Assembly (NCBI GenBank): GCA_965202605.1
Contig: OZ241838.1
Coordinates: 3,325,008 to 3,389,007, forward strand
Reading direction: 5' to 3'
DNA length: 64,000 nt
Origin: a bacterium
GTDB taxonomy: Bacteria > JAAXHH01
Below the pieces are notes generated by a model, which made no database searches, had not been told where the DNA came from, and was given only the letters and a program-made list of their open reading frames with translations. Every line of letters begins with the position of its first letter. Within the stretch, counting starts at the first letter, position 1. Both the position numbers and the translations under genes were made by a program. Shown piece after piece: positions 54,256 through 64,000 of this stretch.

Positions 54256-56901
54256 ATGACCGTCATCACCGCGACCACCCGGCTTTCCCGCGAACTCCGC
54301 CAGGAATACGACCGGGAACAGCAGGCGGCGGGCCAGTCCTGCTGGCCGGCGGCGCATATCCTGCCTATGTCGGCCTGGTTGCAGGACCTGTGGAATACGT
54401 GGTTGTTTTCCGACCACGGGGCAGCCGCATCAGACCGGCTGCTCTGGCCGGCCGAGGAACGGGTCATCTGGGAAGAGATCATTCGTTCGCAGACCGGCAA
54501 CACGCTGCTGGACATCCCCGCGACGGCCGAGGCGGCACTCAAATCCTGGGGCCTTGTATGCGACTGGGACCTGTCGCTCGACGCGCCGGAGTGGCAGGAT
54601 TCCGCGGATCCGGAAGCCTTCCAGGCGTGGGCCCGGGCGTTCCGAAGGCACTGCCGCGAGAACGGCTGGTTCTCAAACGCGGAACTGCCCTCGATGCTCG
54701 CGGGCCTCATCGAACGGGGAGAGGTTCCCGTCCCCGAGGAAGTCGAGTTCGCGGGGTTCCATGAACGGACGCCTGGCCAGCAACGGCTGGTAGATGCCCT
54801 GGCCAAGCGCGGGGTGGATGTGCGGGAACGTGAACACCCGGATGCCCGGGGCGAGGCCGTGCGCGTGGGCCTGCCTGACGCCAGTCGTGAAATCCGCGCC
54901 GCCGCCGAATGGGCCCGGCGGATTCTGGAAACCGAACCTGATTCCGCTTCCCCGGCCTTCCAGATCGGCATCGTCGTTCCCGAACTGGAGCAGCACCGCA
55001 GCGAGATCGAGCGCGTCTTCGGCGAAGTGTTCCATCCCCGCACCCGGCTCCGACCGGACCTGGACCCCAATCGGCTCTTCAACATCTCCCTCGGCCTGCC
55101 TGTCGGCGAATATCCGCTTATCAATACGGCGTTCCTGATCCTGGAGACGGACCCCCGGGACATCCCGATCGAGCAGGCCAGCCGGATATTGCGCTCGCCG
55201 TTCCTGCTCGGCTCCGAGACGGAGATGACGAGCCGCGCCCTGCTGGACGTAACCCTGCGATCGCGGCGACAGACCCATGTTTCACTCTGGGACATCATCG
55301 GCCTGGCCCGGGACGAGGACACCGCCCACCACTGTCCCGGGCTTGTCGCCCGCTTCGGGTCGTGGACGAACCGGTACAGGACTCTCCAGACCCCGCGCAT
55401 GCCGAGCGACTGGGCGCCGGTCCTCTCGGATTTCCTTGGGCACCTCGGATGGCCGGGAGACAGGGCACTCGACAGTACAGAGTACCAGACCCTGGAAGTC
55501 TGGAGAGAGCTGCTTGCCGAACTCTCGAAACTGGATAGCGTCTCGGGGCCCGTTCCGCTCGGTGCGGCGACAGGCATCCTGCGAGACCTGGCGTCATCCC
55601 GGCTGTTCCAACCGGAGTCGGCGCGTGCGCCGGTCCAGATCCTGGGCCTGCTCGAAACCGCCGGCCTCCGCTTCGACAGGCTCTGGACCATGGGCATGCA
55701 CGACGGCGCGTGGCCGGCGGTCCGGCGGCCCGATCCGTTCCTTCCCCTTCGCCTGCAGCGCCGTTTCGAGCTGCCCGGGTCGTCCCCGGCGCGGGAACTG
55801 GACTATCACCGTATGCTCACCGGCCATCTGCTTTCGAGCGCGCCGTCGATTGTCGTCAGCTATCCCGAGCGGGAAGAGGATGCGGACCTCAGGGTCAGCC
55901 CCCTTTTCGATTCGCTGCCGCAAAAACCTGTCGCCGATCTGGAACTGCTCACATCTGCCGGTTACGCGGAACAACTCCTGGACGCTTCCACCGTGGAGAC
56001 CATACACGATCACCGTGGCCCTCCGTGCGGCGATGCGGCGCTTACCGGCGGGACCTACCTGTTCACGCTCCAGGCGGCCTGTCCCTTCAAGGCCTTCGCC
56101 GAACTGCGGCTTGGCGCCAGGGTGCCGGATGAGGCGGCGCCGGGATTGGACGCGCTGGACCGGGGGAACCTGGTTCACCGCATTCTCGAGCGGGTCTGGG
56201 AACGACTGCGGTCGCACGACGGGCTGCTTTCCGAGACGGAGGACGACCTGGAGGTTCTCGTGCGCCTGCGCGTCAGTACCGAGATCCTGAATCAACTGGG
56301 CGACCGGGCGCTACGCAATCCCCGTTTCGTTGAAATCGAGCAGGCGCGGCTGGAAGGCATCATCGGGAACTGGTTGCGTCTGGAAATGGATCGATCGCCC
56401 TTCACGGTGCTCGAGCAGGAGAAGTGGCAACGGGCAACGGTGGGCGGCATCGAGGTGAGTATCCGGGCCGACCGGGTGGACCGTCTCGAGAACGAGGAAA
56501 TCGTCATCATCGACTACAAGACGGGAGCGTGCAGTCCGTCCGGCTGGGAGGGACCCCGGCCGGATGAGCCCCAACTGCCCATCTATGCCGTGGCCACGGA
56601 CGATCACGTCGCGGGCGTGGTCTTCGGCAGGATTACGGCCGGGAAAGTGGAATTCCGGGGTCTGGCCAAGTCCGCTGAAATCGTTCCCGGGCGCGGTGTC
56701 AAGGCGCCCGACGGCGAGGCGGCGCTGGCGGACACGATCGAAGCGTGGGGAGAGGTCCTGGAAAAACTCGGCCGCGACTACAGAATGGGCATGGCGTCAG
56801 TCGATCCCAAGAACCCCCACCAGACCTGCAGGTATTGCGCGCTGCCGTCCCTGTGCCGAATAAGCCAGGGCACCGTCGAACTGGAGGATGGCGATGACTG
56901 A
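54256..56901 (+). CDS. AddB-like PD-(D/E)xK nuclease subunit of an AddAB-type helicase-nuclease
   Basis: C-terminal RecB-family nuclease motif (IVIIDYKTG) flanked by a four-Cys cluster (incl. CRYCALPSLC) as in AddB iron-staple domains. Precedes and overlaps the UvrD-like gene. Confidence 0.6.
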   Translation: MTVITATTRLSRELRQEYDREQQAAGQSCWPAAHILPMSAWLQDLWNTWLFSDHGAAASDRLLWPAEERVIWEEIIRSQTGNTLLDIPATAEAALKSWGLVCDWDLSLDAPEWQDSADPEAFQAWARAFRRHCRENGWFSNAELPSMLAGLIERGEVPVPEEVEFAGFHERTPGQQRLVDALAKRGVDVREREHPDARGEAVRVGLPDASREIRAAAEWARRILETEPDSASPAFQIGIVVPELEQHRSEIERVFGEVFHPRTRLRPDLDPNRLFNISLGLPVGEYPLINTAFLILETDPRDIPIEQASRILRSPFLLGSETEMTSRALLDVTLRSRRQTHVSLWDIIGLARDEDTAHHCPGLVARFGSWTNRYRTLQTPRMPSDWAPVLSDFLGHLGWPGDRALDSTEYQTLEVWRELLAELSKLDSVSGPVPLGAATGILRDLASSRLFQPESARAPVQILGLLETAGLRFDRLWTMGMHDGAWPAVRRPDPFLPLRLQRRFELPGSSPARELDYHRMLTGHLLSSAPSIVVSYPEREEDADLRVSPLFDSLPQKPVADLELLTSAGYAEQLLDASTVETIHDHRGPPCGDAALTGGTYLFTLQAACPFKAFAELRLGARVPDEAAPGLDALDRGNLVHRILERVWERLRSHDGLLSETEDDLEVLVRLRVSTEILNQLGDRALRNPRFVEIEQARLEGIIGNWLRLEMDRSPFTVLEQEKWQRATVGGIEVSIRADRVDRLENEEIVIIDYKTGACSPSGWEGPRPDEPQLPIYAVATDDHVAGVVFGRITAGKVEFRGLAKSAEIVPGRGVKAPDGEAALADTIEAWGEVLEKLGRDYRMGMASVDPKNPHQTCRYCALPSLCRISQGTVELEDGDD

Positions 56902-63593: not shown

Positions 63594-64000
63594 TTAATGT
63601 TTAATAGATTTATAATGTCGTTTCAGCTTGTCTCTGGCGTCGTTGGTCGTAAAGCCCCAGTTCAGCTTGACCGCTTTCTCGTTACGCGCCTCTACCCAGG
63701 CGGCGATTTCCCGGTCCAGGACGTGCTGATCGGCGATACGGCGGTTACAGCACTGCCTGCCCAGCACGGACAACTCCAATTCGGCCATGTTGAGCCAACT
63801 GGCCTTCTTCGGCGTACGATGCGGTTCGAACCGGCCCTTGAGACCGCGGGCGACCTCCGGCTCGAAGGCTTGATAGAAAGACCCGGCGCTATGGGTGTTC
63901 AGGTTGTCCTCCACCAGACGGACCTTGCGGACGCGTTCATAGCGGGCGGCGATCATGGCCCGCATGAACTCGGCATAGTCGATTTTGGTGCGCCGCTTGC
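63594..64000 (-). mobile_element. DDE transposase C-terminal fragment (IS630-like), gene runs off the window end
   Basis: ORF 63594..63965 contains ...KKASWLNMAELELSVLGRQC...AW...W.FT...AR.KL, resembling the C-terminal end of IS630-family DDE transposases. Reading frame stays open from 63965 to 64000. Confidence 0.5.

What the first reader, a model, noticed from the sequence alone, without database searches (positions are those of the whole stretch)
54256..64000. AddAB-type repair genes followed by a co-oriented N6-adenine methyltransferase and putative restriction endonuclease, then a truncated transposase
The methyltransferase has gamma-class motifs (X, I, IV/NPPY) and its stop overlaps the start of a 360-aa gene that I tentatively read as the cognate endonuclease. 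An AT-rich promoter-like segment precedes the pair and a DDE-transposase fragment follows, suggesting a mobile type II restriction-modification module. Together with the 41-49 kb island this gives the window two separate methylation-based systems.
Basis: partly seen in the sequence, partly recalled or inferred. Interest (0 to 1): 0.45.

Follow-up and report, generated by a model that had tools for sequence, protein, structure and literature searches.

The report
PstI/BsuBI-family restriction-modification operon
This is an ordinary two-gene bacterial defence module, an adenine DNA methyltransferase followed by a PstI/BsuBI-family restriction endonuclease, lying just after AddAB-type repair genes; the transposase after it looks truncated only because the window ends.

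Summary
AddB-like (54256-56901) and AddA-like (56888-60424) genes are followed by a 34-45% GC spacer. Next come a gamma-class N6-adenine methyltransferase (60568 or 60589-62397) and a 360-aa protein (62397-63479). That protein matches both BsuBI/PstI endonuclease Pfam domains (E 7e-32 and 5e-44) and the solved enzyme SdaI (E 1.8e-19).

M stop and R start overlap by one base. M lies directly upstream of R in 79 of 79 informative related loci. R is broken in 5 of these and M in none, the decay pattern expected of a toxic nuclease with a protective methylase.

The catalytic Asp and Glu of SdaI are invariant here. The SdaI lysine is Ala, but this holds across the family, including the Stx2a-phage CTGCAG enzyme whose type the literature reports as active.

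PADLOC already holds subfamily-specific models, so this is a new member of a known kind. The target sequence is unknown.

Two corrections:
- The pair sits in the same chromosomal slot in two related genomes without the IS630, so IS630 does not carry it.
- The transposase ORF simply runs off the window end.

Interest is low.

The parts
54256..56901 (+). AddB-like nuclease subunit, 881 aa. It is context for the finding, not part of the R-M module.
   Evidence: TIGR03623 at 880.6 bits (cut-off 299.6) and PDDEXK_1 1.3e-27. It carries an IIDYKT nuclease motif and C609 plus C858-x2-C861-x5-C867, an AddB-style Fe-S cysteine pattern.
56888..60424 (+). AddA-like SF1 helicase-nuclease, 1178 aa. It overlaps the AddB-like gene by 14 nt.
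   Evidence: UvrD-helicase 2.7e-40, UvrD_C 2.5e-24 and a C-terminal PDDEXK_1 4e-06. Walker A is GSGKT near aa 30, and IIDYKT lies near the C-terminus. Its best equivalog, addA_alphas, scores 230 bits, below the 860 cut-off.
60425..60567 (+). AT-rich intergenic spacer holding a promoter-like TTGAAA-N18-TATAAC at 60481-60510.
   Evidence: GC is 0.45, with a 0.34 core. The block is about 90% conserved with L002, although the coding DNA is only 75-78% identical. The strict sigma-70 scan found no site. No credible controller ORF is present.
60568..62397 (+). Gamma-class N6-adenine DNA methyltransferase. It is 609 aa from ATG 60568, or more likely 602 aa from TTG 60589. Motif X is at 60970-60987, motif I at 61060-61086 and NPPY at 61339-61350.
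   Evidence: Eco57I 5.3e-15 and N6_Mtase 4.2e-12; PADLOC MTase_II PDLC03338 at 786 bits. It is 26% identical over 434 aa to the Stx2a-phage CTGCAG methylase. An AF2 model (pLDDT 73.8) matches M.BseCI, CamA and M.TaqI. The start codon is inferred from the alignment with L001 and L002.
62395..62399 (+). M stop / R start overlap (TGATG), the site of translational coupling. A GAGGAG Shine-Dalgarno sequence lies 5 nt upstream of the R ATG.
   Evidence: Read directly from the sequence. The same 1-nt overlap occurs in 44 of 79 related loci and a 4-nt overlap in 14 more.
62397..63479 (+). BsuBI/PstI-family type II restriction endonuclease, 360 aa. The N-terminal winged-HTH domain spans 62427-62909 and the C-terminal catalytic domain 62952-63431. 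Catalytic D257 is at 63165-63167 and E274 at 63216-63218.
   Evidence: PF17728 7e-32 and PF06616 5.3e-44; SdaI 2ixs 1.8e-19; PADLOC REase_II PDLC03589 at 425 bits. D257 and E274 are invariant in 58 homologues.
63480..63593 (.). Spacer between the R stop and the transposase stop. Homology with L001 and L002 ends at 63468. It probably holds one end of the IS630 element, but that end could not be located.
   Evidence: blastn end-points. GC is 0.47. It holds only a weak hairpin, arms 63548-63557 and 63574-63583.
63594..64000 (-). 3' part of an IS630-family DDE transposase gene. The reading frame runs off the window end.
   Evidence: DDE_3 5.8e-12 and NF033545 IS630 3.2e-14, matching model positions 218-299 of 299. 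The frame is uninterrupted from 63998 down to the stop at 63594. The element is absent from the same position in L001 and L002.

Best explanation
Bases 60568-63479 encode a complete two-gene type II restriction-modification operon of the PstI/BsuBI family.

The pair is probably transcribed from the AT-rich spacer upstream. The first gene makes a gamma-class methyltransferase that uses S-adenosyl-methionine to place N6-methyl groups on an adenine in a short target sequence, which protects the host chromosome. The second gene is translationally coupled to the first through a 1-nt stop/start overlap and its own GAGGAG ribosome-binding site. It makes an endonuclease with two domains: an N-terminal winged helix-turn-helix domain that reads the same target, and a C-terminal PD-(D/E)XK-like domain (D257, E274) that cuts DNA lacking the methyl mark, such as incoming phage or plasmid DNA.

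Shown here: family membership of both proteins, gene order and coupling, conservation of the acidic catalytic residues, strict M-R co-occurrence, and R-first decay.

Inferred: enzymatic activity, promoter use, and the defence role. The recognition sequence is unknown. CTGCAG or a related site is possible, because the NTRE-x-[IF]-R helix motif is shared with the Stx2a-phage CTGCAG-type enzyme.

In this lineage the pair is a stably inherited resident of a chromosomal defence-island slot. The AddAB-like genes upstream and the IS630 downstream are neighbours, not components.
For: - Both Pfam BsuBI/PstI domains are present and the methyltransferase is of Eco57I/N6_Mtase type. Subfamily-specific PADLOC type II models score 786 and 425 bits.
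- R matches SdaI at E 1.8e-19.
- M and R are each homologous to the Stx2a-phage M and R pair (26% over 434 aa and 24% over 252 aa). PMC3893438 reports this type of pair as methylating CTGCAG, with a biochemically active R.
- Motifs X, I and NPPY are in gamma order, and the methyltransferase fold matches M.BseCI, CamA and M.TaqI.
- D257 and E274 are invariant in 58 homologues.
- M is immediately upstream and co-oriented in 79 of 79 informative loci. A 1- or 4-nt overlap occurs in 58 of 79.
- R carries a stop, frameshift or insertion in 5 of 79 loci, M in 0 of 79.
- Related genomes hold the pair in the same slot: L001 is 86% identical at DNA level, and L002 has the AddAB-M-R order.
- In those relatives the pair is followed by Mrr and McrBC genes, so the slot is a defence island.
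Against: - No activity, methylome or expression data exist for this sequence or, as far as I could find, for any member of this 600-aa M / 360-aa R subfamily.
- The lysine of the SdaI catalytic triad (K251) is Ala277 here.
- The strict sigma-70 scan found no promoter.
- CTGCAG is not depleted in the window (26 observed, 26.5 expected). It does not stand out in 1.26 Mb pooled from carrier genomes either (ratio 0.81, rank 19 of 64). So the target cannot be inferred.
- The AF2 model of R was too poor (pLDDT 58.6) to check active-site geometry.
Confidence: 0.8

Rival explanations
1. The 360-aa protein is a catalytically dead relic or a mere DNA-binding protein, because it lacks the active-site lysine. 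On this reading the locus is effectively a solitary methyltransferase with a regulatory partner.
For: SdaI K251 aligns with Ala277 in E-V-V-A. The AF2 model could not confirm active-site geometry.
Against: Missing lysine is typical of the family. Nearly all of 66 diverse representatives have E-x-V-[A/S/H/Y]-[T/S] at this position. The Stx2a-phage CTGCAG enzyme has E-S-V-T there, and PMC3893438 reports the R gene of this type as active. D257 and E274 are invariant, and the whole protein is about 70% identical across phyla, which points to strong purifying selection. R is selectively lost while M is never lost, as expected for a toxic nuclease.
Confidence: 0.07
2. The pair is a recently acquired mobile cassette moved by the adjacent IS630 element.
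For: An IS630-family transposase gene lies 115 bp downstream. The R-M pair is 58% GC against 66% for the AddAB genes. The family occurs on 182 plasmid records and in many phyla.
Against: The same pair occupies the same slot in L001 (86% DNA identity, similar to its flanks at 82-88%) and in L002 (AddAB-M-R). Neither has the IS. Only one IS copy is visible and it is on the opposite strand. Only 1 of the 80 related loci shows a hit to this transposase, a weak one at 33% identity.
Confidence: 0.06
3. AddB, AddA, M and R form one functional four-gene system, with the helicase-nuclease dedicated to the restriction system rather than to general repair.
For: All four genes are co-oriented and adjacent in the window and in L002. 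In the L001 lineage the AddAB pair is missing as a block. The AddA-like protein also hits GajB-type helicase models.
Against: Only 1 of 79 other loci (L002) has AddAB-like genes next to M-R. The L001 lineage keeps intact M-R without them. A 143-bp AT-rich spacer with a conserved promoter-like block separates the two pairs. The AddB-like protein has no PADLOC hit, and the GajB hits only reflect the generic UvrD fold. The two pairs differ in GC, 0.66 against 0.58.
Confidence: 0.04

Closest known systems
PstI / BsuBI / EcoGIII type II R-M systems (CTGCAG), compared here through the Stx2a-phage TL-2011c gene pair
   Same: Both genes are homologous: M at E 4e-35 and R at E 1e-20. Both have M-then-R order with overlapping stop and start. 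The methylase is gamma-class N6-adenine. The nuclease has the same two-domain layout, with PD...E-x-V-x-[ST]-x-G-P and no lysine at the SdaI K251 position.
   Different: Identity is only 24-26%. The methyltransferase here has an extra confident helical N-terminal region of about 130-150 aa. The endonuclease is about 40 aa longer. The target sequence is unknown and may differ.
SdaI restriction endonuclease (PDB 2ixs; CCTGCAGG)
   Same: This is the only solved structure that matches (E 1.8e-19 over residues 88-343). From my own knowledge of Tamulaitiene et al. 2006, which I could not read here, SdaI has a winged-HTH reading domain plus a PD-(D/E)XK-like cutting domain. Its D233 and E248 align with D257 and E274.
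   Different: SdaI K251 aligns with Ala277. SdaI is the exception in the family at this position.
Uncharacterised subfamily on plasmids: Rhodopseudomonas palustris CGA009 pRPA (609-aa M, 356-aa R), and Xanthomonas, Sphingobium and Rhizobium plasmids
   Same: Protein lengths, gene order and overlap are the same. R is 55-59% identical, and the pairs are annotated 'N-6 DNA methylase' plus 'BsuBI/PstI family type II restriction endonuclease'. PADLOC models PDLC03338 and PDLC03589 cover this subfamily end to end.
   Different: Those copies are plasmid-borne, this one is chromosomal. I found no experimentally determined specificity for any of them.
Gamma-class N6-adenine methyltransferases M.TaqI, M.BseCI and CamA
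   Same: Same motif order (X, I, IV/NPPY) with a C-terminal target-recognition domain. Profile and fold matches are strong.
   Different: Sequence identity is 12-20%. The N-terminal helical region is extra.
AddAB helicase-nuclease (neighbouring genes)
   Same: An SF1 UvrD-like helicase with a RecB-type nuclease, partnered with a nuclease subunit carrying a CxxCxxxxxC cysteine cluster; the two genes overlap.
   Different: Scores are far below the AddA and AddB equivalog cut-offs. The AddB-like protein belongs to TIGR03623, 'probable DNA repair protein'.

Membership tests
BsuBI/PstI-family type II restriction endonuclease | N-terminal BsuBI_PstI_RE_N (winged HTH) domain plus C-terminal BsuBI_PstI_RE catalytic domain | tested here: met
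   PF17728 at 110.6 bits and PF06616 at 149.8 bits, both against a cut-off of 27. SdaI matches at 1.8e-19.
BsuBI/PstI-family type II restriction endonuclease | Conserved catalytic Asp and Glu (SdaI D233 and E248) | tested here: met
   D257 and E274 align with them and are invariant in 58 homologues.
BsuBI/PstI-family type II restriction endonuclease | Lysine of the PD-(D/E)XK variant motif (SdaI K251) | tested here: not met
   The position is Ala277. The lysine is also absent from the Stx2a-phage CTGCAG-type enzyme (Thr) and from nearly all of 66 diverse family representatives. It therefore does not define the family.
BsuBI/PstI-family type II restriction endonuclease | Adjacent cognate methyltransferase homologous to the PstI-type methylase | tested here: met
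   M is 26% identical over 434 aa to the phage CTGCAG methylase. M is adjacent in 79 of 79 informative loci.
BsuBI/PstI-family type II restriction endonuclease | Mg2+-dependent cleavage within a defined palindromic site (CTGCA^G for PstI) | not testable with these tools
   Palindrome-avoidance statistics were uninformative.
Gamma-class N6-adenine DNA methyltransferase | Motif order X - I - IV (NPPY), followed by a C-terminal target-recognition domain | tested here: met
   GAYYTP at aa 135-140, DPACGGGAF at 165-173 and NPPY at 258-261. The fold matches M.BseCI, CamA and M.TaqI over the full length.
Gamma-class N6-adenine DNA methyltransferase | m6A formation at a specific motif | not testable with these tools
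   No methylome data are available.
Controller-regulated R-M operons (C protein or RHH) | A small DNA-binding regulator gene next to the M-R pair | tested here: not met
   The 143-bp spacer holds no credible small ORF. The 65-aa RHH-like gene found upstream of M in 20 of 79 relatives is absent from the window.
AddAB helicase-nuclease | AddA: SF1 helicase with Walker A and a C-terminal RecB-type nuclease. AddB: nuclease domain with a cysteine cluster. The two genes adjacent. | tested here: met
   (GSGKT; IIDYKT in both proteins; C609 plus C858/C861/C867). The genes overlap by 14 nt.
AddAB helicase-nuclease | Score above the NCBIfam AddA and AddB equivalog cut-offs | tested here: not met
   addA_alphas scores 230 against 860 and addB_alphas 68.6 against 486. 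TIGR03623 is met at 880 against 299.6.
IS630-family insertion sequence | DDE_3 transposase | tested here: met
   DDE_3 5.8e-12 and NF033545 3.2e-14. Only the C-terminal third or so lies inside the window.
IS630-family insertion sequence | Terminal inverted repeats and a TA target duplication | not testable with these tools
   The other end of the element lies beyond base 64000.

The most novel reading that the evidence does not exclude
This 600-aa M / 360-aa R subfamily has no characterised member that I could find, and it may recognise a site other than CTGCAG. Near-identical copies (about 65-75% protein identity) sit in MAGs of at least ten phyla, and many record names point to marine-sponge microbiomes. 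If they share one specificity, they could act as a community-wide methylation 'passport' that eases gene exchange among co-resident symbionts while excluding outside DNA.
Probability: 0.12. Interest if true: 0.45.

Novelty: new member of a known kind. Interest (0 to 1): 0.15.

Why it matters
The finding matters little beyond correct annotation. It confirms that the window carries two independent methylation-based defence systems, and it places this one in a chromosomal defence-island slot that holds Mrr and McrBC in related genomes. It would be useful to anyone trying to transform or engineer this organism, or to interpret its methylome. The wider subfamily is abundant, uncharacterised and spread across phyla, so it would be a reasonable target for determining a specificity. 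The locus itself holds no surprise.

Tried and rejected
- **AF2 model of the endonuclease.** It was built from a 58-sequence but shallow alignment and came out at pLDDT 58.6. The Foldseek search against the PDB gave only meaningless hits and did not find SdaI. I discarded it and relied on sequence homology instead.
- **Missing catalytic lysine.** I followed this up as a possible sign of inactivity. I rejected it after finding that the whole family, including the Stx2a-phage CTGCAG-type enzyme, lacks it.
- **Target inference from palindrome avoidance.** CTGCAG was at expectation in the window. Pooled over 1.26 Mb from carrier genomes it ranked 19 of 64. There is no non-carrier control, so this is inconclusive.
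- **Strict sigma-70 scan.** It found no promoter. Only a near-consensus block conserved with L002 supports a promoter.
- **Exact-sequence look-up of the endonuclease.** Not on record.
- **Rfam scan of the window.** Nothing found.
- **Literature searches for a characterised subfamily member.** Searches on BsuBI plus methylome, Xanthomonas plus CTGCAG, and R. palustris pRPA found only classical PstI-type systems. The SdaI structure paper is not held, so the catalytic roles of D233, E248 and K251 rest on my own knowledge. The residue numbering itself can be checked.
- **AddAB as part of the system.** Rejected, because only 1 of the 79 other loci (L002) shares the adjacency.
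Full report
**Observation.**
- 54256-56901 (+, 881 aa)
- 56888-60424 (+, 1178 aa)
- 60568-62397 (+, 609 aa)
- 62397-63479 (+, 360 aa)
- a minus-strand ORF from 63594 to the window end

GC falls from about 0.66 over the first two genes to 0.57-0.59 over the next two.

**AddAB-like pair.** The 881-aa protein scores 880.6 bits against TIGR03623, 'probable DNA repair protein' (cut-off 299.6), and carries a C-terminal PDDEXK_1 domain. The 1178-aa protein has UvrD-helicase, UvrD_C and a C-terminal PDDEXK_1 domain. 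Read directly from the sequence:
- AddA-like: Walker A GSGKT, and IIDYKT near the C-terminus.
- AddB-like: IIDYKT, plus C609 and C858-x2-C861-x5-C867, which is the AddB-type iron-sulfur cysteine pattern.

Both proteins fall far below the AddA and AddB equivalog cut-offs. 'AddAB-type' is therefore right as a family-level description, not as an orthologue call.

**The methyltransferase.** Pfam gives Eco57I (5.3e-15) and N6_Mtase (4.2e-12). Motifs X (GAYYTP, aa 135-140), I (DPACGGGAF, 165-173) and IV (NPPY, 258-261) are in gamma-class order. A profile of 53 homologues hits M.TaqI, CamA and M.BseCI in the PDB. An AF2 model (pLDDT 73.8, pTM 0.70) matches the same enzymes over its full length. The first 130 residues or so form a confidently predicted helical region that the shorter PstI-type methylases lack.

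Alignment of the upstream region with two related loci shows that the conserved start is TTG 60589. It corresponds to GTG in L001 and ATG in L002, each preceded by a GGGA or GGAG Shine-Dalgarno sequence. This gives the 602-aa length of the closest homologues. ATG 60568 has no spacing to its AGGA.

**The endonuclease.** The 360-aa protein matches both halves of the BsuBI/PstI family: PF17728 at 7e-32 over residues 11-171, and PF06616 at 5.3e-44 over residues 186-345. It also matches the solved enzyme SdaI (2ixs, 1.8e-19).

From my own knowledge of Tamulaitiene et al. 2006, which is not held in the library, the SdaI active site is D233, E248 and K251. The alignment reproduces that numbering and places D257, E274 and Ala277 opposite these residues.

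I followed up the missing lysine as a possible sign of inactivity:
- In 66 diverse 50%-identity representatives, nearly all have E-x-V-[A/S/H/Y]-[T/S]-x-G at this place.
- The Stx2a-phage TL-2011c enzyme has E-S-V-T. It belongs to the EcoGIII/PstI-type system, which PMC3893438 reports as methylating CTGCAG and as having a biochemically active R gene.

SdaI is therefore the exception, and the alanine does not argue against activity. D257 and E274 are invariant in 58 homologues.

**The pair as a unit.**
- M stop and R start share one base (TGATG, 62395-62399). A GAGGAG sequence lies 5 nt before the R ATG.
- Among 80 related genomic loci, every one that extends far enough (79) has the methylase gene directly upstream and co-oriented.
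- The overlap is 1 nt in 44 loci and 4 nt in 14.
- R is interrupted by a stop, frameshift or insertion in 5 loci (L002, L032, L040, L049, L067). M is never interrupted. This asymmetry is what one expects when R is a nuclease that can be lost safely and M is a protector that cannot.
- Both proteins are homologous to the M and R of the phage CTGCAG system, at 26% over 434 aa and 24% over 252 aa. The whole system is therefore a diverged cousin of PstI/BsuBI.
- PADLOC, whose R-M models I believe derive from REBASE (my own knowledge), has end-to-end models for exactly this subfamily: MTase_II PDLC03338 at 786 bits and REase_II PDLC03589 at 425 bits. The subfamily is thus already catalogued.
- Plasmid copies at 55-59% identity are annotated as 'BsuBI/PstI family type II restriction endonuclease' plus 'N-6 DNA methylase'. 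Examples are R. palustris CGA009 pRPA and Xanthomonas, Sphingobium and Rhizobium plasmids.

**Regulation.** The 143-bp spacer is AT-rich (0.45 GC, core 0.34) and contains TTGAAA-N18-TATAAC at 60481-60510. The strict scan reports no sigma-70 site. The block is nevertheless about 90% conserved with L002, where the coding DNA is only 75-78% identical. A promoter is therefore plausible but unproven.

There is no controller gene. In 20 of 79 relatives a 65-aa gene sits immediately upstream of M. It resembles a ribbon-helix-helix protein only weakly (RHH_3 E 0.001, below the cut-off). It is absent here, so this copy appears to rely on gene order and translational coupling alone.

**Mobility and context.** The family is clearly mobile on a broad scale. 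It has more than 3,400 homologues, 182 plasmid records, and about 65-75% identical copies in MAGs of many phyla. Its GC is on average 2.3 points below that of its flanks.

In this lineage, however, the pair is a stable resident:
- L001/L083 (OY762445.1) matches window 48.9-54.06 kb at 82-88% DNA identity and the R-M pair at 86% (60521-63468).
- L002 has the order AddB-AddA-M-R, at 68, 71, 78 and 83% protein identity.
- Homology to both relatives stops at 63468. Downstream they carry, respectively, an Mrr-type nuclease and an HSDR_N-like gene, and then both carry McrB and McrC. The slot is therefore a small defence island with a variable cassette just after R.
- In the window that position holds the IS630 gene. 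It is on the opposite strand and absent from both relatives.
- The IS630 reading frame is open up to base 63998, so 'truncated' reflects only the window edge.

**Specificity.** This remains unknown. The helix motif Y-A-x-N-T-R-E-x-[IF]-R is shared with the phage CTGCAG enzyme, which hints at a related site. CTGCAG is not depleted in the window (26 against 26.5 expected), nor notably depleted in 1.26 Mb pooled from carriers (ratio 0.81, rank 19 of 64). I found no characterised member of the subfamily in the literature.

**Verdict.** This is a standard type II R-M operon of a catalogued subfamily, so it is a new member of a known kind and of low interest. The corrections concern the role of the IS630, the 'truncation', and the methylase start codon.

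Noticed in passing
window 41239-48343 (minus strand): A low-GC island (about 0.46) encodes a C5 cytosine methylase (47033-48343), a HATPase_c_3 GHKL ATPase (45402-46973), a Z1-domain protein (43268-45415), a DUF4420 PD-(D/E)XK protein (42279-43271) and an HNH nuclease (41239-42096). This looks like the methylase-linked multi-gene restriction cluster of the kind discussed by Iyer et al. 2008 (PMC2292703). I saw that paper only as a search-result title and abstract and did not read it. The island is the window's second methylation-based system.
   Followed up: partly
L001 5571-6126 / L083 7571-8126, against window 54062-60521: The closest relative (86-88% DNA identity, seen in at least four contigs from different samples) lacks the whole AddAB-like pair. 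A 555-bp AT-rich filler with a 46-aa ORF takes its place. The more distant L002 keeps AddAB. This points to a lineage-specific loss of a 6.2-kb repair operon next to the R-M pair.
   Followed up: partly
L004 5977-6174, and the equivalent position in 19 other loci: A conserved 65-aa gene lies immediately upstream of the methylase in 20 of 79 related loci. Its resemblance to ribbon-helix-helix proteins is weak (RHH_3 E 0.001). It is probably a controller, and it is absent from the window, L001 and L002.
   Followed up: partly
L002, L032, L040, L049, L067: The endonuclease gene is disrupted by a stop codon, frameshift or insertion while the methylase stays intact. L002 is the locus that shares the AddAB synteny with the window.
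   Followed up: yes
L001-L080 (record titles): Copies of the pair at 60-75% protein identity occur in MAGs labelled Acidobacteriota, Chloroflexota/Dehalococcoidia, Alpha- and Gammaproteobacteria, Spirochaetia, Binatia, Thermodesulfobacteriota, Tectimicrobiota/Entotheonella and others. Many bin names (SB06xx, APA, IRC, COS, RHO, Spongia_Bin9) are ones I recognise as sponge-microbiome studies. I did not check sample metadata.
   Followed up: no
L083 11460-16428; L002 9315-14342: In the related genomes the R-M pair is followed by an Mrr_cat/HARE-HTH nuclease (L001) or an HSDR_N-like gene (L002). McrB (AAA_5) and McrC follow in both, and an HNH_2 gene follows in L001. The slot is thus a defence island whose cassette just after R varies.
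   Followed up: partly
L026, L040, L073: Gaps of 2056, 1121 and 526 bp separate M and R in these loci, instead of an overlap. These may be insertions between or into the genes.
   Followed up: no
window 53329-54102 (+) and 53281-54111 (-): Two long overlapping ORFs lie on opposite strands. In L083 the plus-strand ORF is the called gene and is a PhyH-family dioxygenase. The longer minus-strand ORF has no Pfam hit.
   Followed up: partly
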